NCBI GenBank assembly: GCA_964389375.1
Contig: CAYMDP010000008.1
Coordinates: 17,985-81,984 of the forward strand
DNA length: 64,000 bases
Source of the DNA: an uncultured Pseudobdellovibrionaceae bacterium
Lineage (GTDB): Bacteria; Bdellovibrionota; Bdellovibrionia; Bdellovibrionales; UBA1609
Direction of reading: 5' to 3'
Every line of letters starts with the position of its first letter. Within the stretch, counting starts at the first letter, position 1. Below are positions 7,121 through 52,417 of the stretch, piece after piece. Under the pieces are notes generated by a model that worked only from the letters and a program-made list of their open reading frames with translations, ran no database searches and was not told the origin of the DNA. A program made the position numbers and the translations under genes.

Positions 7121-9595
7121 TTAGCTTGAGGACTCTTCCTTTTTCGAGGCCGCATAGGTTTCTCGAAACCACGCTCTTGCGTGCTTCATAAAGCCATCTC
7201 CAATCCCGTAGTAGAGCATCGAACAGAAGTAGCCGTTTTCACCCGAGGGATCTTCTTCGCAGTGATAAAAGCGAGCACACAGATTTCTGTTCGGCGCGCT
7301 GTCAAATATTCCACCTCGAAGAAATAAAACAGTTCCCGGAACAATCGGCCTTGGGTGAGCAATGGCCGCTCCGAATTCTCCAATTTGAACCAACTTTGCC
7401 GGTTTTGCGACGTGGATCGGAAAAAGACTTGAAAGCCATCCCATATTCTCGAAGTGATATAGGCTATGCTTGAGTCCCGTCGCTTGGGATATCAAAAATA
7501 AAAATAAACGATTATCAATGGGCCGTGGAAGAAGGCCGATGACTTCAGGTCTTGAGTATTTGCGAATATCAGGTGGTCGATTTGGATCGTAAGTCAGAAT
7601 CAATTTTATAGATGTTCCACCAGCTAGCAGGTTTTTGGATTGGGCAATAGAGTTTAAGCCATCCAGCCAAGAGTCGAAGGTTTCACCAGGAACCAGATCA
7701 ATATTGGCCACGATTGCATCGAGGCTTGTGAGTTGTTGCTCGGTGCGAAAGCGGATCGCAATATCCTGCATCTCGGCCGGCTTAAAGCGAACTTTTAAAT
7801 GTTCAGAGTCTTTTTCAGAAAACTGAATCGTGAGGGCCCGAAATCCACCTTCGCTATTTTTTGCTAAAATCCTTTTTTCGATCGTTTGACCAGTGCTGGC
7901 AAGCTTTAGGGCATCTTCAAAAACCAGTAGGTTTTCTTCTGTATCGAAAGGTTTACGCCAAGCTTGGGGGCTACCGCCTAGTTCGCCCAGGTCAAAACCT
8001 AAGAACTTTTCTTCAGGCTTAACAGTTACACCAAAACTCTTAAAATCAAAATTTTCTTTGGACAGAATAAATGCAAGTTGATCCGAGTGAAGATCTTCTT
8101 TGCTCGCCAAGGTGACTTCCCCTTCGCTGGGTCCAGAGGCGATCTCTTGAGCCATATATTTTTTAATAAATAAGGACATGCTCCCTTCAGGAATACTTCG
8201 GATCAAGTCAAAGTCCGAGCGCAAGCTTGTGGCCATGTTCTGCGAGATGGATTCATCCATTTCTATGATTGCAACCGATCGCACACGCTTTTCTTGTTCA
8301 CTTAAAAAAACATCGTCAGGGTTAAACCGAAAGGCTTCGCGATCATCTTTGACAAAACTAGAGTAGTTCGAACTTTTTGATAAGAACTGCCGGATCGCAG
8401 TGATTTGAGTACGACTGACCCCAAAGAAAGAAAAATAAACGACGTAGGTTTTTTCCATTTCTGGATGTGGATCGGAGCGGATGACTTTGGCGAAGACATC
8501 AAAGTTATCTTTTTGACCTGGCAGAGTGAAGAAAAAATGCCCAATCAAGCCTTCCTTTAAGGGAATTGGATTTCGGATGGCCAGGCCAATATCGGATAAT
8601 CTTTCGATCTTCGTAATTTTTGAGATCTCAATTTGAAGATCGACTTGCTGAAAGTATAAAAAGCGGGGAGAGGGCTTTTCGGGAAGTGACAGAAGAATAT
8701 CTAGTTTTTGTAGGAAAATTAGCCGATCTAGCGGCAAGTAGACTAAATCGTCGATGTCCGGATCGATTAAATCTAATTTTGAAATGTTATCGTCTTCGTA
8801 CTTGGTTAAGACAACTTGGGTTTTGCCTTCTGCGGGGAGGTAATTAAATTCGGCCAGTTTTTTTCGCAAAGATTTTACCCAATCGATGGGCTTGCCTTTG
8901 ACACTGGTCAGTTTAAAAACGACCAGGTGTATTTCTTTAACAAGCTGAAGACTTTCGAGATCAGTTTTGACCTTTTCTCGACGCTCTTGTTCCTTTTTGA
9001 AGATGGGCTTCAGGCGTGAGGTTTGATCCTCAAGCTCGATTAAGATATCGGCTCCCGCCGAATACTTGAAGTTTAACTTAATCAGGTGAAGACCTTTTCC
9101 TGGATTATTAAAAATCAGGGTCGCCTGGCCCCGATTTTTTTCGACGGCATTTTTGATCTCAGCCTCAAATTGACTGATCGAATTGTCGCTGATCAAAGAA
9201 AGTATTTTCCTAGGCTCCTTCATCAGCTCGGAATAGGGAAGACCTAAAAATGTGGCGTCTGCCCCTTGGCTGGGCTGAACTTGACTGACCTGAAGATTCG
9301 AAAGTGATAAGGTTAAACTTAATCGTGTCGCCGAAAAGGCCAGCTCATCGGACAGATTTTGATCCACGAGCCAGTTTAATGTTTCTGAAGAAATGCCCTC
9401 TAAGAGAGGGTGCTGAAAAGTGACTTGAGTTTTAACTTCGCTGACTTTTAAGTTTGGATTAAAGTAAGTGCTTTCGAACTCTTTGGTCGAAGAAAAGCTA
9501 CGTACCGAGTATTCTTCATCACCCATCTCTCGGATGAACATCTCCATCTGGCGGAGAACCCTGGGGTCGTCTTCAATTAAAATAATATTTGGCAT
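7121..9595 (-). CDS. Large cytoplasmic signalling protein: truncated receiver-like N-terminus plus two PilZ-like segments
   Basis: MPNIILIEDDPRVLRQMEMFIREMG looks like REC beta1-alpha1, but no phospho-acceptor block follows. The mid segment (ISKITKIERLSDIGLAIRNPIPLKEGL...VVYFSFFGV) and the C-terminal segment (VQIGEFGAAIAHPRPIVPGTVLFL) look like PilZ beta-barrel cores. Confidence 0.45.
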   Translation of the reverse strand: MPNIILIEDDPRVLRQMEMFIREMGDEEYSVRSFSSTKEFESTYFNPNLKVSEVKTQVTFQHPLLEGISSETLNWLVDQNLSDELAFSATRLSLTLSLSNLQVSQVQPSQGADATFLGLPYSELMKEPRKILSLISDNSISQFEAEIKNAVEKNRGQATLIFNNPGKGLHLIKLNFKYSAGADILIELEDQTSRLKPIFKKEQERREKVKTDLESLQLVKEIHLVVFKLTSVKGKPIDWVKSLRKKLAEFNYLPAEGKTQVVLTKYEDDNISKLDLIDPDIDDLVYLPLDRLIFLQKLDILLSLPEKPSPRFLYFQQVDLQIEISKITKIERLSDIGLAIRNPIPLKEGLIGHFFFTLPGQKDNFDVFAKVIRSDPHPEMEKTYVVYFSFFGVSRTQITAIRQFLSKSSNYSSFVKDDREAFRFNPDDVFLSEQEKRVRSVAIIEMDESISQNMATSLRSDFDLIRSIPEGSMSLFIKKYMAQEIASGPSEGEVTLASKEDLHSDQLAFILSKENFDFKSFGVTVKPEEKFLGFDLGELGGSPQAWRKPFDTEENLLVFEDALKLASTGQTIEKRILAKNSEGGFRALTIQFSEKDSEHLKVRFKPAEMQDIAIRFRTEQQLTSLDAIVANIDLVPGETFDSWLDGLNSIAQSKNLLAGGTSIKLILTYDPNRPPDIRKYSRPEVIGLLPRPIDNRLFLFLISQATGLKHSLYHFENMGWLSSLFPIHVAKPAKLVQIGEFGAAIAHPRPIVPGTVLFLRGGIFDSAPNRNLCARFYHCEEDPSGENGYFCSMLYYGIGDGFMKHARAWFRETYAASKKEESSS

Positions 9596-9689
9596 GACCT
9601 TAATATTAGGCCCTATTTCGAGGGCTTAGACAATGGACCAAGGTCTATACTAGACTGTGTCCAGCAAAACTAATTTTGCCGGGTACAGC

Positions 9690-10316
9690 CTAAGGAAAGA
9701 GTCTTTGGGATTTCCAAACTTCCTGTTGTTTTAAAAATACAAAGCGATCATGAAGGCGATTGTCTTGGCCAATCCAAAACTCAATTTTATCGGGCCGAAT
9801 TTGATAGCCGCCCCAATGTTCGGGGCAGGGGATGGGTTTACCATCGAAGTCCTTTCGGGCCTGATCGACTAGGTTCTTTAGTTCAAAGCGATCTTTGGCG
9901 GGGCGAGATTGGTTCGAAATCCATTGGCTTAACTGACTCTCTCTAGGGCGAGAGTTCCAGTATTTTTCGGATTGCTGCCTAGAGCTTTGCTTGACGCTTC
10001 CTTCGAATCGGACTTGGCGAAATAAAGGGTCCCAGTAGAACAAGGCCGCAATTTTGGGATTCAATTTTAGGTCTTCCCCCTTGGGGCTAAGATAGTTTGT
10101 GTAAAAGACCAAGTCTTCGTTTTGGATCTCTTTCAGAAGTACAATTCGAGATGAGATCACACCTGAAGCTCCGAGGGTCGAGATGCTCATCGCCGTGGGT
10201 TCTTTGACCCGCGCATCCGCTCGCGCTTCCTCTATCCATGCCTCAAGAATCTTAAGAGGGGCAGTTTGACTTGAAAAAAACTTATCAAAATCCACTTGAA
10301 CTTCCTTTATAAGCAA
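9690..10316 (-). CDS. pdxH: Pyridoxamine 5'-phosphate oxidase
   Basis: RIVLLKEIQNEDLVFYTNYLSPKG, SRPRESQLSQWISNQS and HWGGYQIRPDKIEFWIGQDNRLHDRFVF match PdxH end to end. An alternative GTG start lies at 10295 after AAGGAAG. Confidence 0.9.
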   Translation of the reverse strand: MLIKEVQVDFDKFFSSQTAPLKILEAWIEEARADARVKEPTAMSISTLGASGVISSRIVLLKEIQNEDLVFYTNYLSPKGEDLKLNPKIAALFYWDPLFRQVRFEGSVKQSSRQQSEKYWNSRPRESQLSQWISNQSRPAKDRFELKNLVDQARKDFDGKPIPCPEHWGGYQIRPDKIEFWIGQDNRLHDRFVFLKQQEVWKSQRLFP

Positions 10317-10432
10317 ATTTGCATTCGGTATAGCACGCCTTATGCTGGTTGGTCCAACAATGGTGTTTCTTCGATCTTGACAGCGGGGCTTAAGCCCACT
10401 CTGATTGAGTGGTGTTCAATAAGGAGTTAGCT

Positions 10433-11407
10433 GTGCAAAAGGTCCTTTGTTTCGACCTCGGTGGAACAAAACTCGCATCGGCCTTAGTCGATGACCGTGG
10501 GGAGTACTCCGAGCTTCGCAAAACTTTAGCACCTATCGAAGGTGGCCCTGAGGAGTTGCTTGTTCAAATGGAGGAGGTCTACTCGGACCTTTTGTCCCGT
10601 GGTTTCAAAATTCGGTCTGTTGGAATTTCCTCTGCGGGGCCTTTAGACCCACAGGCTGGTATTTTGTTGGACCCAACAAACTTTCGTTTTTCTAATGGCA
10701 AAACCTGGGGCGTTTTTCCTTTAGTGGAGGCTTTGTCTAAAAAAATTCCAGTTCCAATTCATATGGATAATGATGCCGTTGCGGCGCTTCTTGCCGAGAA
10801 CTGGATCGGCGCTGGAAAGTCTTGTGATAATTTGGTCGTAATGACCTTGGGCACAGGAGTTGGGGTCGCAGCACTAGCGGGTGGAAAAATTGTTCGGGCC
10901 GGTCGGGGTCTTCATCCCGAGGTTAGCCACACACCCTTGTTTGTCAAAGGCGAAGCCCCCTTGTGTGAATGCGGAATGAAAGCTTGTATGGAGGCTTTTT
11001 TGTCAGCCAACCATTTTGTCGCTCAGCTAAGAACTCTTTGGAATGAGCCAAGCTTGACCGGAGAAAATTTGGTCTTAAGAGCAAAAAATAAAGATCCAAA
11101 AGCGCTTCAAGCCTTCGATGATTACAGCGAAAAAATGGCCTTAGCTCTGGCTAGTCTTGTGGTGCTGTTTGCTCCGGAAAAGATATTGATCGGCGGTGGA
11201 TTTAGCTCGGCCTTTCCGCACTTTGCAAGTCGCGCAAAAATTCGTCTTGCGAAGCTCATCGAGCGCCGAAGAAAAGGAATCGATTTAATGCCCTCTGTAG
11301 AGCTTTGTGCTTTGGGTTGGGAGGCCGGACTTGTTGGGGCCGCTCGTTTGTCTTTAGGCTCTGGTCAGGGCCTTGCCAAATCAAAGGAACAAAAAAAGAC
11401 GACCTAG
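10433..11407 (+). CDS. ROK-family sugar kinase (glucokinase-like, no N-terminal HTH)
   Basis: LCFDLGGTKLA phosphate-1 motif, DNDAVAALLAE, and the ROK zinc motif HTPLF...CECGMKACMEAF. The start was moved to GTG 10433, 6 nt after AAGGAG; the track ORF starts at 10409. Confidence 0.8.
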   Translation: MQKVLCFDLGGTKLASALVDDRGEYSELRKTLAPIEGGPEELLVQMEEVYSDLLSRGFKIRSVGISSAGPLDPQAGILLDPTNFRFSNGKTWGVFPLVEALSKKIPVPIHMDNDAVAALLAENWIGAGKSCDNLVVMTLGTGVGVAALAGGKIVRAGRGLHPEVSHTPLFVKGEAPLCECGMKACMEAFLSANHFVAQLRTLWNEPSLTGENLVLRAKNKDPKALQAFDDYSEKMALALASLVVLFAPEKILIGGGFSSAFPHFASRAKIRLAKLIERRRKGIDLMPSVELCALGWEAGLVGAARLSLGSGQGLAKSKEQKKTT

Positions 11408-11426
11408 TTTTTTCAAACTAGGTCGT
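11399..11426 (-). terminator. Hairpin terminator between convergent genes
   Basis: 10-bp perfect stem acgacctagt / actaggtcgt with an 8-nt loop. On the minus strand it is followed by CTTTTTTTG. It sits 23 nt downstream of the stop of the 1327-aa gene. Confidence 0.55.
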
Positions 11427-11448: not shown

Positions 11449-14400
11449 TTACTTTAAAGCCCCTTCACATCGGGCAGCGGCACCTAAATTAGAAATTGGG
11501 TTCCCACCTTGGCGGCCAAATTCGTTTTGGCTCACTTTGTCGGGTGCTGCTTGGCTGAAAAGGTCTGAGTAGACCACAAGATCTGAACTCAGTTTGATAT
11601 CTTGAATTTGATTTGTCTTTCGACTTTGAACTAGGGCTTGAATATCAGCGGTGGCTTGGGGTCTTGAAATGCTATCAAGGATCTCAGCATCACGGCTTGT
11701 TTTCATAATCTCTAGGGCTTTGTCGGAAGAACTTTTTGGGGAACTCCAAAACTGAGAAGCCCAGGATTGAACTCGATCCAAAATCCCCGGACTTTCTTTT
11801 GTTTGTCCGGTGATCTTAGCTTTGTCATAGCGCTTTCGAAAATCAGAATGCTTTTCGCCAATCACAGGGTGTTTAGAGTAGAAGGCCTCAAGAGCTTCAA
11901 CTTGCATATCTCCCAGTTGTGCCAACTGAAGTCCCAAGGGAATAAAGCTTGAGCTATAGTTTGCAAGCAGGGCGTGTTCAGCAAGGGCTATTCCTTCTTG
12001 AATTAAGCGGTCGACTTCTTGGTTCACCACATCTCTTTGGCTGGCACTTAAGGTTGACAGGTATTGCTCAGGGCTGAGACCTTCAGGTGCGGCAGAGACT
12101 CCGAATTTTTCAGAAAGTCCCAAACGCAACACCGAGTCTAAAGCCAGACGTGTGGCCCGCTTCATATCATCGGACTTTCCAGCATCATGACGTGCACCCT
12201 TAGTCACCAAAGTCTGAGCAATAAAGCCCGCAACATAGACGGCAATCTGACGTGAAATGAGTTCAGGTGTATACACCATACTTTCTTCAAAATTATAAAT
12301 GGCAATACCCGCATACGAAACCCACTCATCCCCGCGAGGAGTGACTCCCGGAATAATTGAGATTCGGGTGGATTTGGTCTTGTCGCTAAAGTAGGCCTTG
12401 CGAACTAAATCATGTCCTGCTTCGTGGAAGGCCGTCAGCAATTGGTCCTCGTCGCGAATCTTAAGCGACTCTTGATCTTCTTTGCCTTTAATCTCAAGAA
12501 CCAAGGGTTTTTCATAGCCCTCGATATGCAGGGCCAGCTTTAGATCGCGTCGAATCAGGCCGTCTTTTTTCTGTGAACGAAGCTGATCCCCCTTTTCTAA
12601 AACCTCAATTGCGATTCTTTTCCCACTAGGAATTTTTTCTCGAAGCAAAAGATTACGAAGACCGTTTTCAAAGCTTTGTTTAACAAAGCGATCGATCGAG
12701 GCTCCTTGCTCCCGCAAGACGAATCCTGCGTTCTCGATTCCTTCGATCAAATGAAGAATCTGATTTTTATCAGTGAAGCCGACATTCCATCCGCGTTTGC
12801 CTTTAGACTCTTTAAGTTTTTTAATGGATTCGACTAAATTTAACTGAGTCAATTGGCGAATGGCCTGAAACGAAAGCGGACCAAAGACGTAGATATTGTT
12901 TTCGCCGACTCGATTGATCATCGCCGAGCTGAAGTGCCGCTCGAGCATGGCGCGTCTCATTTGACGATTCTTTTGTACTTCTTCGTGGATAATTTCCATA
13001 GCCGCGAGTTGTTGAACCTCTGGGATATCTTTTGGAACTTGATTAAACCAATCTTCCCCAGCATTGCCAGTCATGATCAAAGTTACACCATTCATCGGCC
13101 GGGCAATCCCGTCAGAAAAGGTTGTGACAATCGGTTCTCTTAAAACATCGTAAAGCGCTTTTAGAACGTCTCGAGGGGCATTTGCAACTTCATCAAGCAC
13201 GACCAGCATTTGTCCGTTCGTTCGATCGTACTCTTTCATAAAGTCAGAGTGAACCGGATTTCCTTGAAGGTCTCGAGTGCCTAAGACCTTTTCTTTAAGG
13301 TCGCGAACACTTTGCACCTGGCTGAAATCCATTAACTTAAGTGCACTTTTATTTCCGTATCGGGCTTCTGCGAGACGTTTTGCAGTCTCTGTTTTACCGG
13401 TCGACGACATTCCTAGGAACATATAAGACTTTGCTGCCCCTTTTGGAACTTTTGAGGTCAAATCCTGGGCCCTGCGATCTTCTTCGCTGAGCAGTGTATC
13501 TTGAGTTAGTTGAGCGATAATCTTATCAACACCAAAAACTTTTTCTTGCATTGAAGATCCGGTCGCCAAGATCTGATCAATTTTTTCATCCTCAATTTTT
13601 GGTTTTTCACGGTCTTGCTCGGTGATTGCGATCGGAAGACGCAAGACTTCGCGGGTGCGATTACTGGTCACGATCAAAACCGAAGGTCCCTCATTTAGAG
13701 TTTCGATACTGACTTTAAGGGACTGACCATTTGGAGCCCTTGGGATCAATCCTTCGTGGATGGCTTTAAGCAAAGGAATTTCGGTGATGGCCTCAACTCG
13801 AGTTTCGATGGGCCTTGCATTTTCTTCTGGCTCGTAGTGATAGCTCTGAATGAAATCAACAAGCTCCTTGGACCATTCGACTGTTAAGGGGCCGAGCAGA
13901 TGAGAAGCCTGAGAAATTTTTCCAGCAAGTTCAGCAAGGCGCATTTCGGTAATTCGCTTTAGGGCCTCAGGGGATAGGGGGCGAAGAAGGATCAAGTGCT
14001 CATCGTGAAGGCGGTTTAAAAGTTCTTCAGAAATACCGGGCTCGTCTCGAGAGCCTCTGGTATTCACGCCACCATTTGTCGCTTGCATGGCATTTTTTAG
14101 CGCCCGGTGGTTTTTGTGATTGAGGGTCCAATTTTCCATAAGCTTTTCGAAACTCAAAGTTTCTCCATAGCGCTGTCCATTCAACTCTCTTGGGGCCAAT
14201 AGATTAATTCCCTCATTCGTTGCGATCACGAAGGTGACTGGGACTTCAATATGGGTCAACCCGCCGTTCGGGTTGTTGACTTCAAAAATGCCCTTCTCGA
14301 GCGCTTGTTTGATAAAGATATCCTTCATCTCTTTGGACCAATTGTGGAATTCATTTAAAAAGATGACCGCATGTTCTGGTCCATCCATGTCTGGCAAAGA

Positions 14401-15432
14401 TTTTCGTCCGCCAACAATCCATTCTGGATTTTCTTCAATGGCATAGGTGGTTTTATCTCCAGGGGACTTCACTTCTTTCAGGACATAGCGCCCACCAGAA
14501 TGCTCAACCAGAAACTTCAGCAAACTCGGAAAATTTCCCGAACCGATATAGCCGGTGGCTGAACCTAAGACTTTCCATAAGTCCGATTCTTTACGAACCA
14601 CGGGCATCCGGAACATATGTTCAGAGTGGGCTCCGACCTTTCCGTTGATCGCATCTACATAATTTTCAGCAGTCGTGTCTTTACCGTTTCCTGGAAGCCC
14701 CATCAAGACGCGAACAGCGGGCTTGCTTATACCGAATAAAAACTTTGAGCGTTCAAGATTGACAAGACTTTCGATGACCTCGGGTTGCCCAATAATTCGC
14801 GACTCAAGATAGTTTCGGATCTCACTAATTCGTTTTGATCCCCAATCCCAAAGTTGATCTCCGGATTGCACTCCCGATGGGGGAGATTTCGCAGGAGGCT
14901 TTGGGCCGACTTTGGAATTCGGCAGACGAAGAGTGCCCGATTGCTTTGGTTTTTGCTCTAGGAGTTCGGCATAGCCTTCGAGAGTGTAAATGGGACGTTC
15001 ATCTTCGGCCGCAGCATTGCCCAGGTCTTCAATTAATTTTCGGTATTCTGGGAGGGCAGGGTTGTTTGCAAGCTGCTCGGATACGTAATGCATTAAATAA
15101 ATCAATGCGTCCACGCTACTTTTATTCGTGATTTTTCCAATTGCCCGGATGGACTCTCGAATCAGGATATCTTGAAACTCATCTGGAGGAGTGGATTTGC
15201 CTTTTAAGGGGAGGATATTTTCGATTAAGTACTGAACCAGTTTTTCGAAAGACTTGTCGATACGGTACTGACTGAGGAGCTCCATATTTTCAATGTCATC
15301 TTGAAATCTTCCGGAAGGCGGACTGTTTAAGAGCTCAAAGAATTTTTTGGGTGGCTTCTCAATGACCACCGAGTGAGCCAAGCCGCTCTGCAAAAATAAA
15401 AGCGAAATAAAGACGCAAAAAATAGATTTCAA
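11449..15432 (-). CDS. Multidomain protein: signal-like N-terminus, HEAT-like repeats, two Clp-D2-type AAA+ modules, FtsH-type M41 metallopeptidase domain
   Basis: N-terminus MKSIFCVFISLLFLQSGLAHS. AAA-1 has GLPGNGKD (Walker A Thr to Asp) and IFLNEF (Walker B Asp to Asn). AAA-2 has GMSSTGKTETA and VVLDEV, both intact. The C-terminus LLTAFHEAGHDLV...IIPG...HDAGKSDDMKRAT matches the FtsH HEXXH and downstream Asp region. TTG start after GAGGGGGG. Confidence 0.7.
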   Translation of the reverse strand: MKSIFCVFISLLFLQSGLAHSVVIEKPPKKFFELLNSPPSGRFQDDIENMELLSQYRIDKSFEKLVQYLIENILPLKGKSTPPDEFQDILIRESIRAIGKITNKSSVDALIYLMHYVSEQLANNPALPEYRKLIEDLGNAAAEDERPIYTLEGYAELLEQKPKQSGTLRLPNSKVGPKPPAKSPPSGVQSGDQLWDWGSKRISEIRNYLESRIIGQPEVIESLVNLERSKFLFGISKPAVRVLMGLPGNGKDTTAENYVDAINGKVGAHSEHMFRMPVVRKESDLWKVLGSATGYIGSGNFPSLLKFLVEHSGGRYVLKEVKSPGDKTTYAIEENPEWIVGGRKSLPDMDGPEHAVIFLNEFHNWSKEMKDIFIKQALEKGIFEVNNPNGGLTHIEVPVTFVIATNEGINLLAPRELNGQRYGETLSFEKLMENWTLNHKNHRALKNAMQATNGGVNTRGSRDEPGISEELLNRLHDEHLILLRPLSPEALKRITEMRLAELAGKISQASHLLGPLTVEWSKELVDFIQSYHYEPEENARPIETRVEAITEIPLLKAIHEGLIPRAPNGQSLKVSIETLNEGPSVLIVTSNRTREVLRLPIAITEQDREKPKIEDEKIDQILATGSSMQEKVFGVDKIIAQLTQDTLLSEEDRRAQDLTSKVPKGAAKSYMFLGMSSTGKTETAKRLAEARYGNKSALKLMDFSQVQSVRDLKEKVLGTRDLQGNPVHSDFMKEYDRTNGQMLVVLDEVANAPRDVLKALYDVLREPIVTTFSDGIARPMNGVTLIMTGNAGEDWFNQVPKDIPEVQQLAAMEIIHEEVQKNRQMRRAMLERHFSSAMINRVGENNIYVFGPLSFQAIRQLTQLNLVESIKKLKESKGKRGWNVGFTDKNQILHLIEGIENAGFVLREQGASIDRFVKQSFENGLRNLLLREKIPSGKRIAIEVLEKGDQLRSQKKDGLIRRDLKLALHIEGYEKPLVLEIKGKEDQESLKIRDEDQLLTAFHEAGHDLVRKAYFSDKTKSTRISIIPGVTPRGDEWVSYAGIAIYNFEESMVYTPELISRQIAVYVAGFIAQTLVTKGARHDAGKSDDMKRATRLALDSVLRLGLSEKFGVSAAPEGLSPEQYLSTLSASQRDVVNQEVDRLIQEGIALAEHALLANYSSSFIPLGLQLAQLGDMQVEALEAFYSKHPVIGEKHSDFRKRYDKAKITGQTKESPGILDRVQSWASQFWSSPKSSSDKALEIMKTSRDAEILDSISRPQATADIQALVQSRKTNQIQDIKLSSDLVVYSDLFSQAAPDKVSQNEFGRQGGNPISNLGAAARCEGALK

Positions 15433-15749
15433 AATGGATCCCCCCTCAGAGATGAATGAGACATCAGCAATGGGGATGCCAAATTGGGAGTAAACTTATC
15501 CACATTGTAGAGAATTCTAAAATTTGATCTGTCGCAAAATTGCAGCGCCGCGCAAGACTTGAGTTATCAGCAATCACGGATACTTAGTTTTCAGAAGCGA
15601 AGCTTCTAGCTAATATTAATATGCCTTATGCTTAAGCGGCGGGCATTTACTGAAGGGAAAAAGTTGTAGCGCTTTCACAAACTTGAAACTTTTTCTTCAC
15701 TCGAAGTCTCAAGTTAGCACCACAAAAATGTTTCACATTTAAGATCAAT

Positions 15750-17543: not shown

Positions 17544-18524
17544 TCAATTTTTGGGGCGAAGCTGCATCATCTCTAAAAGTAGGCCCGTAGATGAAGGGGG
17601 CAGGGGATCAACGTACTTTTGATCTTCTTTGCCCCCACTCCAGGCATGATCTAGGCCTTCAATTAAAAGCATTTTAAACTTACATTTTTCAGCATCAAAA
17701 TCGAGACACAGTTGTTGGAATGAGCGTTTTCCCTCGCGCTTAGTTTCGGATTTAACGGGCGTCAAAATTTGTTTCCGGGCCAATCTTTCTGCCAGCAAGG
17801 TGTGATGTTCAAAAAGGTGTTGGGCATTTGAGGGATGAACAACCTGATCGGCTAATCCTTGGATGACTGTCAGAGATGGGGGACGAAAGGCTTTTTTATC
17901 TTCGGCTCGCGAACAAAAATAGGCCTGCTTCGAGGTCTCTTCACTGCTGCGCTTAGGCCCATCTTTCATCACTTTCGGGCCTTCAACAATATTTTGGGCA
18001 GCTGAAAAGCTAACGCCCGCATGAATCAAGCCCCCTTGAAATCTTTCAGGGTAACAACTCAGCAATACAGAGGCCTCAGCCCCTCCGGCAGAAAGTCCAG
18101 TCACAAAGCTGTCCTTTCTTGGGACATTCAAATTGAGTGAGTCCATAAGGCCAATAATCCATCCGGCTTCGCTCATGTCTCGATGTTGTTGAATCGGGTA
18201 AAACCAATTCCAACAAGATAGACTATTAAAAAATGATGATTGGTATGGAGCCAAAATATAAAATCCGTATTTCGTCGCCGCCTCAGTCAGCGCAATTCCT
18301 TCCGAAAACTCGATCCCATTTTGAAGGCAGCCATGAAGTGCCACGACAAGCTTTGGATTTTTACTTAAAGTGCTAGGAACAAATAGCGAATAAGAGCGGG
18401 AGCCCGAGAAGTCGGCATACTGTCCCTCTTGCCACTCTGAATATGCAAATTCTGCGAAGGTGAAGTTTAGTAGAAGGACCAAACTGATCAAAGGTAGAAG
18501 AAGCGTATGACTTGCTGTTTTCAT
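17544..18524 (-). CDS. Secreted esterase, PHB-depolymerase/LpqC family
   Basis: Signal peptide, LVVALHGCLQNG, SCWNWF, and nucleophile elbow GLSAGG. Confidence 0.7.
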   Translation of the reverse strand: MKTASHTLLLPLISLVLLLNFTFAEFAYSEWQEGQYADFSGSRSYSLFVPSTLSKNPKLVVALHGCLQNGIEFSEGIALTEAATKYGFYILAPYQSSFFNSLSCWNWFYPIQQHRDMSEAGWIIGLMDSLNLNVPRKDSFVTGLSAGGAEASVLLSCYPERFQGGLIHAGVSFSAAQNIVEGPKVMKDGPKRSSEETSKQAYFCSRAEDKKAFRPPSLTVIQGLADQVVHPSNAQHLFEHHTLLAERLARKQILTPVKSETKREGKRSFQQLCLDFDAEKCKFKMLLIEGLDHAWSGGKEDQKYVDPLPPSSTGLLLEMMQLRPKN

Positions 18525-37613: not shown

Positions 37614-38090
37614 CTAGTAGCACTTATAATCGAGGGTGCCCCCGATATGATCTCCCGCTTTAAAGACATAGTGAGCCTGGGAGAAGTCGTTCTTTAGGAT
37701 AAAGCTGCCCCACATCCCCCCGCCATCGTGGCTATTGGATTTGGCTGAGTTAAATTGGGCGAACTGAATATGGTCCAAATAGATTCTTGGTCGATAGTTC
37801 TTATTCTGAAGGATTTCTTTAAACTGAAACAGAGAGTAATAGCCTTCGGCAAGTTGATCGAGGTGGGGTTGGGTCAAATAGACGTGGCCGATCAAATTGC
37901 GCAAAGATTTTTCCTGAGCCTGCTGAAAGATGTCGAATTCAATTCGAGAGTGAACTTCACTGGTCATATTGGCGCGGACCGAATCCGCGATGCAAACTTT
38001 GCTGGCAATTCGCCGGGCTCTTTGGTCCGAATTTGCGAATGAACTATGAACAAGCCCGAGAAGAATTATGCAGAGCGACAAACGTTTCAT
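37614..38090 (-). CDS. Small secreted protein of unknown function
   Basis: Signal peptide MKRLSLCIILLGLVHSSFA. 158 aa. No recognisable motif. Confidence 0.5.
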   Translation of the reverse strand: MKRLSLCIILLGLVHSSFANSDQRARRIASKVCIADSVRANMTSEVHSRIEFDIFQQAQEKSLRNLIGHVYLTQPHLDQLAEGYYSLFQFKEILQNKNYRPRIYLDHIQFAQFNSAKSNSHDGGGMWGSFILKNDFSQAHYVFKAGDHIGGTLDYKCY

Positions 38091-38391
38091 GTCTTAATCC
38101 CTCGATTGAAGTTGACTGGGTATTTAGAGTTGAAGATCCAAAAGTGCAAGTCAGGATCGGAGAGTTTTTTTTAAAGTAAAAGCGCGCTCAGATATGACGC
38201 GCTTTGCATATGAATTGTTTTTAAAGCTGCTGTGAAAGCTCGTAAATATTACTGAAAGCATTTCCAATGGGAGCCATTAGAACCCGTTTTAGTATTTGAA
38301 ATAACTTAGAAAAATAGACCTCTTCCTTCTGGTTCCAAAGTGGAACGTGTCTTGCTCAATCAGAGACTCAAAACTCGGGAGGGTCGACAAG

Positions 38392-39147
38392 ATGAAGGGG
38401 ATAACGGGGATACTTTTAGGAAGTTTACTTGCTGCGCAAAGTGCCTTTGGCCAAGTCGCAACAAACTACAATATTCAGTCGAACTCGGCTGGAGCGACAT
38501 CAGAAATCGTCAATAGCAACCAGTCCCAAGATAAGATCTTGAGTGGTTTTTTACTGGAAAAACTAAAGCCCATCCTGATGAAGAATCCTTACGTAGCGGG
38601 AGTTGACTTTGCCCCAGGCGCCGTAAAAGACGAGCTTGGCAGTTCGTGGACGGACTATAATTCGAAGAATCGAGTCTCCCATGTTTTTGTGCAACTTAGT
38701 TTGCCGACCCGTGTGGGGATGATGTTTGAAGTGACGGAATCCTACCGGGTGTGTAAGCCGCCTGCTGCCGGGGCAGTTGTGGTTTATGATGAAAGCTCTG
38801 GAGCGCAAATCGGGGGCGGGGGAGATTGTGCCCTAGAGTCAGACCTTAAAGTTCGCGGTCCGATTGCTGTCTATGGAAGCTTTTCGAGTGCCGAGAATGT
38901 CGACGCGCTTTTAAGAGATAAGCAAACCTTTCGCATAAGTGCTTCAAAATCCTATGACAAAAAAAATCTGGAGGTGACGAGTCGTCTGACTTTGGAGTCG
39001 AACCTCTTCGAGAAAAATTTCGTGAAGTTTTTAAAGATCTTCAGAGTTCAGACCGCTGAAAACTTTGAGCAGTTCGTTTCTCGTCAGGTGTTCTTAGTTG
39101 GAGTGGCGCGCTTAGAAAGACAGATCAATGAGGAGTTATTGCGATGA
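38392..39147 (+). CDS. Secreted protein of unknown function, first gene of the subtilase operon
   Basis: Signal peptide MKGITGILLGSLLAAQSAFG and GGGAGG SD. The stop overlaps the start of the next gene (ATGA, 39144-39147). Confidence 0.5.
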   Translation: MKGITGILLGSLLAAQSAFGQVATNYNIQSNSAGATSEIVNSNQSQDKILSGFLLEKLKPILMKNPYVAGVDFAPGAVKDELGSSWTDYNSKNRVSHVFVQLSLPTRVGMMFEVTESYRVCKPPAAGAVVVYDESSGAQIGGGGDCALESDLKVRGPIAVYGSFSSAENVDALLRDKQTFRISASKSYDKKNLEVTSRLTLESNLFEKNFVKFLKIFRVQTAENFEQFVSRQVFLVGVARLERQINEELLR

Positions 39148-41075: not shown

Positions 41076-41086
41076 TGGGGACGAAT

Positions 41087-42262
41087 ATGAAAAACACGAG
41101 CAATAAAATCACAAGTCAAAGGGTCCTGGGCTTCGGAGGACTTTTGTTCAGTTTAGTTTTTTCGGTGGCCTGTACGCAGACCTTAATTTTATTTAAGCCA
41201 AGTCCCTATATTGACCCGATGCCCGTCGATCAAAATCCGGTGGGCCAGGGGGCTGATCCGATGTTGGACAAACAATGGAGTCTTGCAAAAGTCGGATTAA
41301 GCAAAGAAACTTTTTCGGACTTAAAGTTTCAAGGCAACTACAACGTTAAGGTTGCAATTCTGTCGACTGGGATTGATTACAATCATGAAGACCTAGTGGG
41401 TCAGATTCATGTCAATCGCGCCGAGATTTCTCACAGTGCTGCGGGTGAAAAGCCTGGAGTGAATCAAAAGGACGAGGATGGAAATGGACTCGTCGATGAC
41501 GTCGTCGGATACGATGTCGTGGATGGTGATGGCTTTGCTTACGATCGTCATGGAGCTGGAACGGCCGTTGCTGGAATTATCGCAGCAAAACGCAACAACG
41601 GAGTTGGGATTGCGGGTTTAATGGGCCAAGTGTCTTTGTATCCGATTCGCTATATCAATGATAACGGCCAAACCTCAATTGGAAATCTAGTCTCTGCTTT
41701 GGAGGTCGCAAAGAAGGTAAAGCCTGATGTTATATTTATCCAGAATACCCAATTTCGCATTGGGGGCTACGAAATGAATCCTCAAGTCGCCAGCGCAGAA
41801 CTTTCGATCCTAACTGCGAATCTTCAAGAGCTTCAAAAGCTTAAGATCCCCGTTGTGGTTGGAGCTGGAGACGAACTAGGAACCTTTGGCGACAACGAAC
41901 TCGAAAAGATGCTGAGAAGTTTTGATAACATTGTGATCGTAGCCTCGACGACGAGCAAAGATAAAAAGGCTTTGCTGTCTAACTTCAGTCACCAAAATGT
42001 TTTGACGGCGGCTCCTGGTGAAGAAATTTTGACCACGAAGCCATTAAATAAATACGGTGTGGTCAGTGGAACGGCCTACGCTGCAGCTCACGTCACGGCC
42101 GCCTTGGCTTTGGCAAAGTCTGCCAAAGGTGAAAAGTTGTCTTATGATGAGGTTATCCCAAAACTGATTTCCAAAGATGGAAGTGATCAGCTTGAAGACT
42201 TGATGACAATGTCTCGTGGTGGAAATCGTCTTCAGATTTCGAAATTTTTAGAATCTTTGTAA
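41087..42262 (+). CDS. Catalytically degenerate subtilase paralog (pseudo-protease) lipoprotein
   Basis: It aligns with the upstream S8 gene, but the motifs are VAILSTGIDYNHEDL (Asp to Ser), VVGAGDELG (Asn to Asp) and SGTAYAAAHVTA (Ser to Ala); only His (DRHGAG) is kept. Lipobox FSVAC. A GTG at 41075 overlapping the upstream stop is an alternative start. Confidence 0.8.
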   Translation: MKNTSNKITSQRVLGFGGLLFSLVFSVACTQTLILFKPSPYIDPMPVDQNPVGQGADPMLDKQWSLAKVGLSKETFSDLKFQGNYNVKVAILSTGIDYNHEDLVGQIHVNRAEISHSAAGEKPGVNQKDEDGNGLVDDVVGYDVVDGDGFAYDRHGAGTAVAGIIAAKRNNGVGIAGLMGQVSLYPIRYINDNGQTSIGNLVSALEVAKKVKPDVIFIQNTQFRIGGYEMNPQVASAELSILTANLQELQKLKIPVVVGAGDELGTFGDNELEKMLRSFDNIVIVASTTSKDKKALLSNFSHQNVLTAAPGEEILTTKPLNKYGVVSGTAYAAAHVTAALALAKSAKGEKLSYDEVIPKLISKDGSDQLEDLMTMSRGGNRLQISKFLESL

Positions 42263-42545
42263 GGACCAGTACGGGCTGCACCATTGCTCTAATTCATTTA
42301 TTTGTGGGGAGAGTCCTTCTCCTCAATTCTTTACCGCAACATTTTTGAACCTCGATATCTGGAACCTCTGTGAGGCTCTGGCATTGATGAAGCCAGTTTT
42401 ATGAGATTTTATGTCTCTTCTGGTGCGTCTTTTGTCCGGACACCGCCCGACCTAAATCTAGATTCAATGCCTTGCTTCAGTTTGTCGCCTCAGGACTTGA
42501 GGGGTCTGGGCTTAAGATCTTTTGAGGGGAATTGGGGAGGACAGG

Positions 42546-43754: not shown

Positions 43755-43907
43755 GCTATTAGTTGTGGCCTCTTCGATTTGATTAAATTTCATAGTCATG
43801 AACTTGATTTCAGAACTGCCTGAAGTCTTGGCAGCGCAAGTTTGCTTTAGGCCAAAACAATGGGCTTTGACCTGAGATAAGCTGGCCCCACGATTGCTTG
43901 AATAGAA

Positions 43908-51232: not shown

Positions 51233-51235
51233 CTG

Positions 51236-51269: not shown

Positions 51270-51312
51270 ATTATTTTCTGGCAAATGAATTATGACTTAA
51301 GTCCGAACGAAG

Positions 51313-52416: not shown

Positions 52417-52417
52417 A

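What the first reader, a model, noticed from the sequence alone, without database searches (positions are those of the whole stretch)
11449..15432. 1327-aa fusion of two Clp-type AAA+ modules with an FtsH-type M41 protease domain behind a signal-like N-terminus
Reading N- to C-terminus directly from the translation: a cleavable-looking signal or anchor (MKSIFCVFISLLFLQSGLAHS), then about 200 aa of HEAT-like helical repeats. Next is a ClpA/B D2-like AAA+ module whose Walker A (GLPGNGKD) and Walker B (IFLNEF) have both lost canonical residues. A second D2-like module has intact GKT and LDEV. The last ~230 aa carry HEAGH and the SDDMKRAT block of FtsH M41 peptidases. Canonical FtsH has two TM helices, one classic-clade AAA module and M41, so a Clp-D2 x2 plus M41 combination is not a standard architecture. 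If the N-terminus is a true signal peptide, the ATPases would sit in the periplasm, where there is no ATP. The topology therefore needs resolving: it could instead be a reverse signal anchor. The protein could be a new type of membrane-tethered unfoldase-protease.
Basis: partly seen in the sequence, partly recalled or inferred. Interest (0 to 1): 0.7.

Follow-up and report, generated by a model that had tools for sequence, protein, structure and literature searches.

The report
Exported double-Clp ATPase fused to FtsH-type protease
This gene encodes a real, conserved and so far undescribed kind of ATP-driven protein-shredding machine, found only in relatives of the predatory bacterium Bdellovibrio, that carries an export signal and so appears to work outside the cytoplasm, where bacteria are not supposed to have ATP.

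Summary
ORF 11449-15432 (-) encodes 1327 aa. In order: a Sec-type signal peptide, a helical-repeat domain, a disordered linker, two ClpB-D2-type AAA+ modules, an FtsH-type M41 zinc protease, and a 137-aa C-terminal extension.

It is not a one-off. About 100 full-length representatives at 50% identity share the architecture, all from Bdellovibrionota metagenome-assembled genomes wherever they are named. No curated family, solved structure or paper describes them.

- **AAA2:** catalytic residues invariant (138/138).
- **AAA1:** keeps the GY[VI]G pore loop but has a family-wide Walker A GK-D-T and Walker B N-E.
- **M41:** the HExxH motif and third zinc ligand are invariant.
- **Signal peptide:** conserved. 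A positive n-region, short h-region and AxA-type site occur in 72% by a strict rule, against 4% of Clp/FtsH homologues. There is no second membrane helix.
- **New here:** an invariant cysteine 4-22 residues from the C-terminus, usually the only cysteine in the mature protein.
- **New here:** 24-28%-identical relatives with three AAA modules plus M41 carry the same signal peptide and cysteine.

Most likely it is an exported hexameric unfoldase-protease. That it runs on prey-derived ATP is inference. I rate it a new variant of a known kind, interest about 0.7.

The parts
11449..15432 (-). Whole ORF, 1327 aa with a TTG start. It is the precursor of the exported AAA+/M41 protease.
   Evidence: An identical protein, P0001, is on record.
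15440..15447 (-). Shine-Dalgarno-like GAGGGGGG, 7 nt upstream of the TTG start.
15370..15432 (-). Signal peptide, residues 1-21. The n-region is MKS, the h-region is IFCVFISLLFL and the c-region is QSGLAHS. The predicted signal peptidase I site is AHS|VV.
   Evidence: Read from the sequence. It is conserved in the family and modelled as helix 2-16.
14956..15348 (-). N-terminal alpha-helical repeat domain, residues 29-159. It is poorly conserved in sequence and is the presumed substrate or partner recognition domain.
   Evidence: Modelled as seven helices at pLDDT about 95. The best PDB match of its profile is a designed helical-repeat protein, E = 1e-4. Pfam finds nothing.
14866..14952 (-). 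Disordered Pro/Lys-rich linker, residues 161-189.
   Evidence: pLDDT is below 50 over 161-178 and there is no secondary structure.
13633..14835 (-). AAA1, residues 200-600. It is a ClpB-D2-type large plus small subdomain.
   Evidence: Alignment to ClpB D2. ClpB_D2-small Pfam hit at 486-564. Foldseek to ClpB NBD2 gives a target-normalised TM-score of 0.74-0.81.
14674..14700 (-). AAA1 Walker A, GLPGNGKDT. It reads GK-D-T instead of GK-T/S.
   Evidence: K251 is kept in 126 of 138 members, D252 in 123 and T253 in 122.
14539..14565 (-). AAA1 pore loop 1, GSATGYIGS. This is the ClpB-D2 GYVG type.
   Evidence: Tyr or Phe occupies position 295 in 119 of 138 members.
14368..14535 (-). Family-specific insertion after the AAA1 pore loop, residues 300-355. 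It contains the FLVxHSGGRY block and a beta-hairpin at 316-334, and is the most conserved block of the family.
   Evidence: ClpB D2 lacks it. S312, G314 and Y316 are invariant. Strands 316-323 and 327-334 appear in the model.
14350..14367 (-). AAA1 Walker B, VIFLNE. It reads N-E instead of D-E.
   Evidence: N360 is kept in 115 of 138 members and E361 in 116. KDT and NE occur together in 102 of 138.
12553..13599 (-). AAA2, residues 612-960. It is a ClpB-D2-type module with canonical catalytic residues and is the presumed main motor.
   Evidence: AAA_2 Pfam hit. NCBIfam ClpB/ClpV/ClpA hits over 612-946. PDB ClpC/ClpB D2 by sequence. Foldseek rmsd about 4 A over about 340 columns.
13390..13413 (-). 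AAA2 Walker A, GMSSTGKT.
   Evidence: K680 is kept in 138 of 138 members and T/S681 in 136 of 138.
13189..13206 (-). AAA2 Walker B, LVVLDE.
   Evidence: E748 is kept in 138 of 138 members and D747 in 123, with Glu in a further 12.
11863..12459 (-). FtsH-type M41 zinc metalloprotease domain, residues 992-1190.
   Evidence: Pfam PF01434, E = 8.5e-16. All 30 scanned members match it. FtsH structures match by sequence. AFG3L2 matches by fold.
12412..12426 (-). HEAGH zinc-binding and catalytic motif, residues 1003-1007.
   Evidence: H1003, E1004 and H1007 are kept in 138 of 138 members.
12166..12168 (-). D1089, the candidate third zinc ligand.
   Evidence: It aligns with the Asp of ANDIERAT in T. 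maritima FtsH, entries 3kds and 2ce7. It is kept in 137 of 138 members.
11452..11862 (-). C-terminal extension, residues 1191-1327. A confidently modelled conserved segment at about 1240-1290 is followed by a disordered stretch at 1299-1319 and a short terminal helix.
   Evidence: pLDDT profile of model m1fc865fbe6ef. Conserved RDxEL...P...A.I..I motif.
11467..11469 (-). C1322, the invariant C-terminal cysteine in the motif [STD]-C-x-x-[LAIVF]-[LF]. It is the only cysteine of the mature window protein.
   Evidence: 134 of 138 members. It is also present in distant M41-bearing relatives.
11399..11426 (-). Intrinsic-terminator-like hairpin with a 12-bp stem and a T-run, 23 nt after the stop codon.

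Best explanation
The gene encodes a member of an uncharacterised family of Sec-exported, self-compartmentalising ATP-dependent proteases restricted to Bdellovibrionota.

**Shown**
- The precursor has a cleavable-type signal peptide, a variable helical-repeat domain and a flexible linker.
- Two ClpB-D2-type AAA+ modules, an FtsH-type M41 zinc protease and a C-terminal tail with one invariant cysteine follow.

**Inferred from homology to ClpB/ClpC and FtsH**
- The mature protein assembles into a hexamer of stacked rings, in the order AAA1, AAA2, M41.
- The helical-repeat domains on top select substrates.
- The AAA1 ring grips the polypeptide with its GY[VI]G pore loops.
- The AAA2 ring is the obligatory ATP-hydrolysing motor. 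Its Walker A Lys, Walker B Glu, sensor-1 Asn and Arg finger are invariant.
- The unfolded chain is fed into the M41 chamber, where HExxH and Asp-bound zinc cleave it.
- AAA1, with Walker A GK-D-T and Walker B N-E, most likely still binds nucleotide but hydrolyses it slowly or not at all. Its role would be structural or regulatory.

**Inferred from the conserved export signal**
- The machine works outside the producer's cytoplasm.
- Its ATPase site is under strict selection, so it must act where ATP is present.
- In a phylum of bacterial predators, the most economical place is the invaded or attached prey cell: its cytoplasm, or a leaky bdelloplast. There it would unfold and digest folded prey proteins using prey ATP.

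**Open**
The invariant C-terminal cysteine occurs only in relatives that carry the protease domain. It probably regulates or stabilises the protease ring, as a cysteine switch on the zinc or as an inter-subunit disulfide. Which of these applies is unresolved.
For: **Architecture and fold**

**A real family under selection**
- 74 clusters at 90% identity.
- 124 representatives with E <= 1e-30, about 100 of them full length.
- 41 loci in species-representative genomes, all Bdellovibrionota metagenome-assembled genomes.

**Catalytic conservation in 138 full-length members**
- AAA2: K680, E748, N790 and R841 are each kept in 138 of 138.
- M41: H1003, E1004 and H1007 are kept in 138 of 138, and D1089 in 137.
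- AAA1: K251 in 126, pore Tyr/Phe in 119, Arg finger R474 in 122 and sensor-2 R540 in 122.
- AAA1 carries KDT together with NE in 102 of 138 members.

**Export**
- A tripartite signal peptide passes a strict rule in 100 of 138 members. Most of the rest look 5'-truncated or borderline.
- The same rule passes only 6 of 139 ClpA/B/C/FtsH-type homologues.
- The n-region is positive in 105 of 116 members and the charge after the h-region averages -0.85.
- The family has no second hydrophobic segment.
- One cysteine remains in 82 of 138 mature proteins of about 1300 aa.
- Relatives at 24-28% identity with a different module count also carry signal peptides. One has a lipobox-like VGAC.

**Precedent for outward-facing AAA+ or FtsH in bacteria that live inside other cells**
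- Phytoplasma FtsH and AAA+ proteins are predicted to face the host (PMC3984173; PMC6981957).
- An ATP transport system was reported in B. bacteriovorus 109J. The paper is Ruby and McCabe 1986, listed as reference b39 of PMC4834554. I did not read the paper itself.
Against: - There is no experimental localisation. The signal-peptide call rests on my own rule-based analysis, not on SignalP or DeepTMHMM.
- The same rule passes 17 of 47 window ORFs, so it is not very specific.
- No route across the producer's outer membrane or into prey is evident. No secretion system or partner gene is conserved nearby.
- No predation-linked promoter motif was found upstream.
- The family was seen only in metagenome-assembled genomes whose lifestyle is unknown. 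No named hit comes from B. bacteriovorus or any other cultured predator.
- AAA2, the invariant ATPase, lacks an aromatic pore loop. Its loop reads GNP[IV]PS. This is unusual for a translocating ring.
- About 15% of members have a degenerate AAA1 nucleotide site.
- Hexamer formation was not modelled.
Confidence: 0.55

Rival explanations
1. The protein is a cytoplasmic, membrane-associated protease. The N-terminal hydrophobic stretch is not an export signal. It acts as an uncleaved anchor with the bulk of the protein in the cytoplasm, or it is simply buried. The protein would then be an FtsH-like quality-control protease with Clp-type motors, working with ordinary cytoplasmic ATP.
For: - This reading removes the ATP paradox.
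- All characterised bacterial Clp and FtsH ATPase domains are cytoplasmic (established knowledge).
- Topology predictors disagree on unusual FtsH proteins (PMC6981957).
- My rule is only moderately specific, passing 17 of 47 window ORFs.
Against: - The positive-inside rule points the other way. The n-region is positive in 105 of 116 members and the downstream flank is net negative.
- The h-region has a median of 13 residues, too short for a membrane span.
- A small -3/-1 cleavage site is conserved in 109 of 116 members.
- A cytoplasmic protein has no reason to conserve this feature in relatives only 24-28% identical.
- There is no second membrane helix.
Confidence: 0.15
2. The protein is exported but does not depend on ATP. 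In the periplasm or outside the cell it would act as a nucleotide-free or permanently nucleotide-bound scaffold. It would be a cage-forming holdase-protease comparable in logic to DegP, and the AAA+ folds would serve only for ring assembly.
For: - There is no known ATP pool in the bacterial periplasm (established knowledge).
- AAA1 already deviates from the catalytic consensus, and about 15% of members have lost its P-loop altogether.
- AAA2 lacks an aromatic pore loop.
- AAA2 has lost the sensor-2 Arg. Position 912 is Ser in 131 of 138 members.
Against: The Walker A Lys, Walker B Glu, sensor-1 Asn and Arg finger of AAA2 are invariant in 138 of 138 members, although the family has diverged to about 30% identity. 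A ring that never hydrolyses ATP would not be expected to keep them. The AAA1 pore loop, Arg finger and sensor-2 Arg are also largely kept.
Confidence: 0.15
3. The protein is exported and ATP-dependent, but it acts on the producer's own envelope. It would extract and degrade the cell's own periplasmic, outer-membrane or inner-membrane proteins from the periplasmic side. The ATP would reach the periplasm by an unknown route, for example leakage or the ATP released around lysing prey.
For: - The export evidence is the same as for the best explanation.
- FtsH-type proteases dislocate membrane proteins (established knowledge; PMC13039401 listed).
- Housekeeping neighbours and the lack of any predation-island context fit a maintenance role.
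Against: - No ATP source in the periplasm is known.
- The family is confined to one phylum, which is hard to explain if it met a general envelope need.
- The variable N-terminal recognition domain suggests diversifying substrates rather than a conserved self substrate.
Confidence: 0.15

Closest known systems
FtsH / AFG3L2 / YME1 (AAA-M41 proteases, MEROPS M41)
   Same: - It has a C-terminal M41 zinc protease with HExxH and the Asp third ligand, fused in one chain behind an AAA+ motor.
- The AAA2-M41 half aligns structurally with AFG3L2, entry 6nyy, over about 600 columns.
- By homology, it presumably forms a hexameric stacked-ring degradation chamber.
   Different: - The motor is not the classic-clade AAA module with a second region of homology. 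It consists of two HCLR-clade ClpB-D2-type modules.
- There is no pair of membrane helices and no periplasmic domain. A cleavable-type signal peptide takes their place.
- A 137-aa C-terminal extension with an invariant Cys is added.
- The protein scores 58.6 bits against the 600-bit cut-off of TIGR01241.
ClpB / Hsp104 / ClpA / ClpC (Hsp100 two-ring unfoldases)
   Same: - It has two stacked AAA+ modules per chain.
- Both modules have the D2 fold, including the D2-small subdomain.
- AAA1 has a D2-type GY[VI]G pore loop.
- Arg fingers and sensor-1 residues sit at the D2 positions.
   Different: - Both modules are D2-like. There is no D1 module, no Clp_N domain and no middle domain.
- The protease is fused, not a separate ClpP recruited through an IGF/IGL loop.
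- The protein carries a signal peptide.
- AAA1 has Walker A GK-D-T, Walker B N-E and a ~55-residue insertion.
- AAA2 lacks the pore-loop Tyr and the sensor-2 Arg.
- The protein scores 81 bits against the 1232-bit cut-off of TIGR03346.
Torsins (eukaryotic ER/nuclear-envelope lumenal AAA+)
   Same: - Torsins are AAA+ ATPases of the HCLR clade, related to Clp D2, that sit behind a signal sequence outside the cytosol (PMC4999309).
- PMC7175109 calls them the only AAA+ proteins residing in the ER and nuclear envelope (abstract).
- From my own knowledge, torsin has a non-canonical residue after the Walker A Lys (GKN), compared with GKD here.
- 13 of 30 family members give weak Pfam Torsin hits.
   Different: - Torsins have a single AAA module, no pore-loop motif, no Arg finger of their own, a Gly-Cys-Lys sensor-2 and no protease (PMC4999309).
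- This family has two modules, its own Arg fingers, a GY[VI]G pore loop and a fused protease.
- The ER lumen imports ATP. The bacterial periplasm is not known to.
- The window protein itself gives no Torsin hit at E <= 0.01.
Skd3 / human CLPB (mitochondrial intermembrane-space disaggregase)
   Same: A helical-repeat N-terminal domain (ankyrin in Skd3) is followed by a D2-type AAA+ module. Skd3 is among the Foldseek hits for AAA1, with a target-normalised TM-score of 0.60-0.78. It works in a non-cytosolic compartment.
   Different: - Skd3 has a single AAA module and no protease.
- Its repeats are ankyrin repeats, which is not shown for this domain.
- It is targeted by a mitochondrial presequence, not a Sec signal peptide.
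Outward-facing FtsH and AAA+ proteins predicted in phytoplasmas
   Same: Bacteria that live inside other cells are predicted to expose ATP-dependent FtsH or AAA+ domains to the host compartment, where host ATP is available. A role in degrading host proteins has been proposed (PMC3984173; PMC6981957).
   Different: - Those are ordinary FtsH or AAA proteins with altered membrane topology. They remain membrane-anchored, and their topology predictions conflict.
- Here the architecture itself is new and the signal looks cleavable.

Membership tests
FtsH (NCBIfam TIGR01241; MEROPS M41) | Whole-protein score above the curated cut-off of the family model. | tested here: not met
   58.6 bits against a cut-off of 600. 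Only residues 987-1158 match.
FtsH (NCBIfam TIGR01241; MEROPS M41) | Two N-terminal membrane helices that flank a small periplasmic domain, with the catalytic domains in the cytoplasm. | tested here: not met
   The window protein and 29 homologues have a single N-terminal hydrophobic segment and no second one. That segment has signal-peptide features.
FtsH (NCBIfam TIGR01241; MEROPS M41) | One classic-clade AAA module (Pfam PF00004). | tested here: not met
   The best AAA models are AAA_2 and ClpB_D2-small. There are two modules, and both align to ClpB D2.
FtsH (NCBIfam TIGR01241; MEROPS M41) | M41 peptidase domain with HExxH and an Asp third zinc ligand. | tested here: met
   PF01434 scores 58.8 bits against a cut-off of 29.9. 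HEAGH and D1089 align to T. maritima FtsH and are invariant in the family.
ClpB/Hsp104 (NCBIfam TIGR03346) | Whole-protein score above the cut-off, and the architecture Clp_N + D1 + middle domain + D2. | tested here: not met
   81.3 bits against a cut-off of 1232. Only the D2 part of the model matches. There is no Clp_N hit. The N-terminal domain profile matches helical-repeat proteins instead.
ClpB-D2-type AAA+ module (Pfam AAA_2 / ClpB_D2-small; HCLR clade) | The D2 fold with large and small subdomains, and Walker A, Walker B, sensor-1, Arg finger and sensor-2 at the D2 positions. | tested here: met
   AAA_2 scores 46.4 bits against 27, and D2-small scores 22.8 against 21.9. Both modules align end to end with ClpB D2. 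Foldseek gives a target-normalised TM-score of 0.72-0.81 to ClpB NBD2. Individual motifs deviate: GK-D-T and N-E in AAA1, and Ser in place of the sensor-2 Arg in AAA2.
Torsin (Pfam PF06309) | Pfam Torsin match above threshold; a single AAA module; a Gly-Cys-Lys sensor-2; no Arg finger. | tested here: not met
   The window protein gives no Torsin hit at E <= 0.01. Weak hits occur in 13 of 30 relatives. This family has two modules, its own Arg fingers R474 and R841, and NARP or QGAS at the sensor-2 positions.
Sec-exported protein with a cleavable signal peptide | A positive n-region, an h-region of 7-15 residues, small residues at -3 and -1, and experimental cleavage or export. | tested here: inconclusive
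   The sequence features are met in the window protein (MKS / IFCVFISLLFL / AHS|V) and in 100 of 138 members by a strict rule, against 6 of 139 Clp/FtsH homologues. No trained predictor and no experiment were available.
Known anti-phage defence systems (PADLOC) | A specific match to a defence-system protein model. | tested here: not met
   Only weak generic AAA matches were found: DolB at 8.9e-8 and PDC-M37B at 6.5e-7, both over short stretches. No conserved partner genes exist.

The most novel reading that the evidence does not exclude
Bdellovibrionota make a class of secreted, ATP-fuelled unfoldase-proteases, built from two or three Clp-type rings fused to an M41 chamber. These would be delivered into, or work within, the prey cell and would run on the victim's ATP to dismantle folded prey proteins. 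This would be the first extracytoplasmic AAA+ protease of bacteria and a new kind of predatory effector. The invariant C-terminal cysteine would serve as a latency switch on the zinc site, or as a disulfide lock, that keeps the machine off until it is outside the producer's cytoplasm.
Probability: 0.35. Interest if true: 0.9.

Novelty: new variant of a known kind. Interest (0 to 1): 0.72.

Why it matters
**A textbook rule would be broken.** Energy-dependent proteolysis in bacteria is considered strictly cytoplasmic, because the periplasm has no ATP. Envelope proteases such as DegP, Prc and BepA are ATP-independent for that reason. A conserved family with an export signal and an invariant ATPase site contradicts this. 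Resolving it would reveal one of two things:
- a new compartment where bacterial AAA+ machines work, such as prey cells or the bdelloplast;
- a new way of orienting such proteins.

**It bears on an open question in predation.** How periplasmic and epibiotic predators break down the folded proteome of their prey is not known.

**It offers natural experiments for AAA+ mechanism:**
- a Clp-D2 ring coupled directly to an M41 chamber;
- labour split between a ring with a pore loop but a deviant P-loop and a ring with a perfect ATPase site but no aromatic pore loop;
- a conserved Walker A Thr-to-Asp change paired with a Walker B Asp-to-Asn change.

**The cost of being wrong is modest.** If the protein turns out to be cytoplasmic, it is still an undescribed AAA+ protease architecture, but of moderate interest.

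Tried and rejected
1. **Conserved gene neighbourhood.** I called ORFs in 41 related loci plus the window and clustered them by BLASTP. No neighbour family recurs in more than 6 loci, and the top three 'families' are antisense ORFs inside the gene itself. The gene stands alone.
2. **Predation-linked regulation.** I searched 25 upstream regions for a sigma-28-like promoter and for any enriched 7-mer. Only one weak sigma-28-like match and AT-rich 7-mers at background level turned up. The sigma-70 scan found nothing upstream on the gene's strand.
3. **N-terminal domain as a Clp_N domain.** The number of helices suggested this. Neither Pfam nor the PDB profile search supports it, and helical-repeat proteins are the best matches.
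4. **C-terminal Cys as a CaaX prenylation box.** Rejected, because the Cys lies 4-22 residues from the end rather than at a fixed -4.
5. **Lipoprotein.** Rejected for the family, because lipobox-like strings occur in only 2 of 138 members. One distant relative, P0222, does have VGAC.
6. **Walker A Thr-to-Asp and Walker B Asp-to-Asn as a strictly covarying compensatory pair.** Not supported. KDT also occurs with DE in 6 members, and there is no clean Thr/Asp class.
7. **Anti-phage defence system.** Only generic AAA hits were found.
8. **Gene-fusion or assembly artefact.** Rejected, because more than 100 independent full-length representatives exist.
9. **Locating the window's own contig by exact protein look-up.** Nothing is on record, and the cluster carries no name. 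The organism is therefore inferred only from its homologues.
10. **Searching with the three-module relative P0205.** Ordinary ClpA/B/C swamped the search, and it added only three relatives.
11. **Measuring the distance from C1322 to the zinc site.** This was impossible, because model coordinates are not exposed.

Full report
**1. The observation**

ORF 11449..15432 on the minus strand encodes 1327 aa from a TTG start. A GAGGGGGG run lies 7 nt upstream of the start. A strong hairpin with a T-run at 11426..11399 follows the stop codon. A 317-bp intergenic region separates the gene from the upstream ETF-ubiquinone oxidoreductase gene. It therefore looks like a monocistronic unit.

Pfam finds three domains:
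- Peptidase_M41 at 992-1156, E = 8.5e-16;
- AAA_2 at 669-842, E = 5.6e-12;
- ClpB_D2-small at 486-564.

NCBIfam matches the D2 part of the ClpB, ClpV and ClpA models over 612-946 and the protease part of FtsH over 987-1158. All scores are far below the family cut-offs.

**2. Anatomy**

A MAFFT alignment of residues 200-600 and 612-960 with the D2 halves of two ClpB proteins shows that both modules are complete D2-type units. Each has the upstream GQ/G helix, Walker A, pore loop 1, Walker B, sensor 1, Arg finger, the small subdomain and the sensor-2 position.

AAA1 has these features:
- Walker A is GLPGNGK-D-T.
- The pore loop is a canonical D2 type, GSATGYIGS.
- A ~55-residue insertion, absent from ClpB, follows the pore loop.
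- Walker B is VIFL-N-E.
- Sensor 1 is N406, the Arg finger is R474 and sensor 2 is R540 (NARP).

AAA2 has these features:
- Walker A is canonical (GMSSTGKT) and so is Walker B (LVVLDE).
- Sensor 1 is N790 and the Arg finger is R841.
- Ser stands at the sensor-2 Arg position (QGAS).
- GNPVHS stands where ClpB has GYVG.

The AlphaFold2 models used a 56-sequence alignment and are confident. Residues 1-640 have mean pLDDT 90.3. Residues 600-1327 have mean pLDDT 89.2 and pTM 0.86. They show the following:
- a signal-peptide helix at 2-16;
- a seven-helix domain at 29-159 with pLDDT about 95;
- a disordered linker at 161-189;
- AAA1 with a beta-hairpin at 316-334 inside the insertion;
- AAA2;
- the M41 domain;
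- a C-terminal extension. Residues about 1240-1290 of it are confidently placed, 1299-1319 are disordered, and the last helix carries C1322.

Foldseek against the PDB returns ClpC, ClpB, Hsp104 and Skd3. Isolated ClpB NBD2 gives a target-normalised TM-score of 0.74-0.81 for AAA1 and 0.72-0.75 for AAA2. The second model also matches AFG3L2 over about 600 columns.

The M41 region aligns with T. maritima FtsH. AFHEAGH lies on AYHEAGH, and GKSDDMKRAT lies on GAANDIERAT. D1089 therefore corresponds to the Asp that I know as the third zinc ligand of FtsH.

A profile of the N-terminal domain matches a designed helical-repeat protein best (5cwb, E = 1e-4). HEAT and armadillo designs appear further down the list. 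Pfam finds nothing. 'Helical repeat' is reasonable. 'HEAT' is not established.

**3. It is a family, and a tightly defined one**

The word-indexed search of 5.8 billion proteins found the identical protein plus 73 clusters of 1015-1487 aa at 31-51% identity. All share the same Pfam content. Scores then drop from 474 to 51 bits, where ordinary ClpB and FtsH begin.

Where sources give names, they read 'AAA family ATPase' or 'hypothetical protein'. The organisms are Bdellovibrionales, Pseudobdellovibrionaceae, Bdellovibrionaceae or Bdellovibrionota metagenome-assembled genomes.

A scan of one genome per GTDB species found 41 loci. Nearly all are labelled Bdellovibrionota (Bdellovibrionales, Bdellovibrionaceae, Pseudobdellovibrionaceae, Bacteriovoracaceae, Oligoflexia or Bdellovibrio sp.). 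Two carry only a generic label, 'Proteobacteria bacterium' and 'bacterium'. None is from a cultured strain.

An exhaustive HMMER pass over 1.84 billion representatives at 50% identity gave 124 hits at E <= 1e-30. About 100 of them are full length, at 1150-1660 aa.

**4. Conservation in 138 full-length members**

| Element | Conservation |
|---|---|
| AAA2 K680, E748, N790, R841 | 138/138 each |
| AAA2 T/S681 | 136/138 |
| M41 H1003, E1004, H1007 | 138/138 each |
| M41 D1089 | 137/138 |
| AAA1 K251 | 126/138 |
| AAA1 D252 | 123/138 |
| AAA1 N360 | 115/138 |
| AAA1 E361 | 116/138 |
| AAA1 pore Tyr/Phe | 119/138 |
| AAA1 R474 | 122/138 |
| AAA1 R540 | 122/138 |
| AAA1 KDT together with NE | 102/138 |

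About 20 members have a degenerate AAA1 P-loop. The AAA2 pore-loop position reads GNP[IV]PS and has no conserved aromatic residue.

AAA2 is therefore the indispensable ATPase. AAA1 is a conserved but more dispensable nucleotide site that keeps the substrate-gripping loop. The idea that Thr-to-Asp in Walker A and Asp-to-Asn in Walker B form a strictly compensating pair is not borne out, because KDT also occurs with DE.

**5. The N-terminus**

Nearly all members start with a classic tripartite signal. Examples are MKKLALVCLSVWALAFS, MSKGWRFLALVVLMMSMPQAFA|DS and MTILKNLLATLLILSLSFATFA|ND.

I applied an explicit rule to the first 90 residues. It requires an uncharged h-region of at least 8 residues starting within the first 45. 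Of 138 members, 116 have one, with these properties:
- the preceding charge is positive in 105 of 116;
- a small -3/-1 site follows in 109 of 116;
- the median h-length is 13 residues;
- the next 20 residues carry a mean charge of -0.85.

Most exceptions are visibly 5'-truncated gene calls or miss the rule narrowly. The combined rule passes 100 of 138 family members, 6 of 139 ClpA/B/C/FtsH-type homologues and 17 of 47 large ORFs in the window.

No second hydrophobic segment exists in any of 30 members examined. This excludes the FtsH topology. It also makes an N-out/C-in anchor unlikely, because it would go against the positive-inside rule.

**6. New features**

(a) An invariant cysteine lies 4-22 residues (median 7) from the C-terminus in 134 of 138 members. 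Its motif is [STD]-C-x-x-[LAIVF]-[LF]. In 82 of 138 members it is the only cysteine beyond residue 60 of a protein of about 1300 aa. In the window protein it is C1322.

(b) A wider superfamily exists. Proteins only 24-28% identical combine a D1-like module (GEAGVGKT), two D2-like modules and M41. Others have two D2-like modules plus M41. They carry signal peptides wherever the N-terminus is complete, and the same C-terminal Cys motif, for example ...SCEKLLLGNK in P0205. One has a lipobox-like VGAC. The named ones come from Oligoflexia and 'Deltaproteobacteria' metagenome-assembled genomes.

Two further relatives, P0216 and P0220, have a signal peptide and three canonical D2-like modules. They have no HExxH motif and no C-terminal Cys motif. 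The cysteine therefore travels with the protease domain, not with export as such.

One genome, represented by locus L004, encodes a three-module paralogue 3.4 kb from its two-module gene.

**7. Context**

The window neighbours are housekeeping genes:
- pyridoxamine-phosphate oxidase;
- a ROK kinase;
- ETF-ubiquinone oxidoreductase;
- a PHB-depolymerase-type esterase with its own signal peptide;
- an alpha/beta hydrolase;
- polyphosphate kinase.

No neighbour is conserved across 41 loci. No upstream motif is shared. PADLOC gives only generic AAA matches.

**8. Interpretation**

The molecular reading rests on homology and strong purifying selection. It is a hexameric, two-tier Clp-D2-type unfoldase feeding a fused M41 chamber, and I hold it with high confidence.

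Export rests on conserved sequence features only. I put it at about 0.75.

If both are true, the machine needs ATP outside the producer's cytoplasm. The family is confined to a phylum described as obligate predators (abstract of PMC8067016). The simplest reconciliation is action in the prey cell or a leaky bdelloplast, using prey ATP.

Two lines of precedent exist:
- Phytoplasma FtsH and AAA+ proteins are predicted to face the host.
- An ATP transport system was reported in B. bacteriovorus 109J. I know this only as reference b39 of PMC4834554; the paper could not be read.

This last step is inference. The main weaknesses are:
- no delivery route is visible;
- the carriers are uncultured;
- AAA2 lacks an aromatic pore loop.

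**9. Comparison and novelty**

The protein works like FtsH or Lon, with the ATPase and protease in one chain. Its motors are Hsp100 D2 rings. It fails the membership tests of FtsH, ClpB and Torsin (see the membership table).

Torsin is the closest conceptual analogue. It is a Clp-D2-like AAA+ behind a signal sequence, with a deviant residue after the Walker A Lys. Unlike this family, it has a single module, no pore loop and no protease.

Six literature searches were run. The four aimed at finding a description of this architecture found none.

I classify the finding as a new variant of a known kind, the AAA+ proteases. Its predicted localisation would be unprecedented for bacteria if confirmed.

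Noticed in passing
Proteins P0216 and P0220; no window coordinates: These relatives are about 1020 aa long. Each has a clear signal peptide and three canonical GP[ST]GVGKT Clp-D2-like modules, but no HExxH motif and no C-terminal Cys motif. They look like exported AAA+ unfoldases without a protease. Export of Clp-like ATPases in this lineage is therefore not tied to the M41 fusion.
   Followed up: partly
Locus L004, second ORF starting at 14552 (+), 1324 aa; the family gene is at 8001-11105: One Bdellovibrionaceae metagenome-assembled genome encodes a three-module paralogue 3.4 kb downstream of its two-module family gene. The paralogue has GEPGAGKT, GPTGVGKT, GATGAGKS, HEMGH and a C-terminal ...ADCEKDL. 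Another genome, AS-MESO-3CA.42, has two family loci, L026 and L028.
   Followed up: partly
Protein P0074 (1041 aa, on a 422,828-bp contig): This family member ends after AAA2. Query residues up to about 1030 match to the very end of the protein. Only AAA_2 is recorded for it, with no M41 and no C-terminal Cys. It is either a natural protease-less variant or a truncated gene call.
   Followed up: no
window 7121-9595 (-): This 824-aa ORF starts like a response-regulator receiver domain (MPNIILIEDDPRVLRQMEMF...). It gives no Pfam hit at E <= 1e-5 over its whole length. It is a large uncharacterised protein two genes away from the finding.
   Followed up: no
window, whole (47 ORFs of at least 150 aa): 17 of 47 large ORFs pass the same crude signal-peptide rule. 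They include the PHB-depolymerase-type esterase at 17544-18524 (-) and a run of ORFs at 37614-45089 and 50576-55109. This fits a secretome-rich genome, but it also shows that the rule is permissive.
   Followed up: partly
window 14368-14535 (-), residues 300-355: The most strongly conserved block of the whole family is an insertion directly after the AAA1 pore loop. It contains FLVxHSGGRY, with S312, G314 and Y316 invariant, and a modelled beta-hairpin. ClpB D2 has no counterpart. Its function is unknown.
   Followed up: partly
Protein P0201 (2327 aa, partial): This distant relative has three canonical Walker A motifs and HEAGH at residue 1126, followed by about 1200 further residues. NCBI names it 'SUMF1/EgtB/PvdO family nonheme iron enzyme' from a Deltaproteobacteria metagenome-assembled genome. 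It appears to be a Clp-type/M41 core fused to a formylglycine-generating-enzyme-like domain.
   Followed up: no
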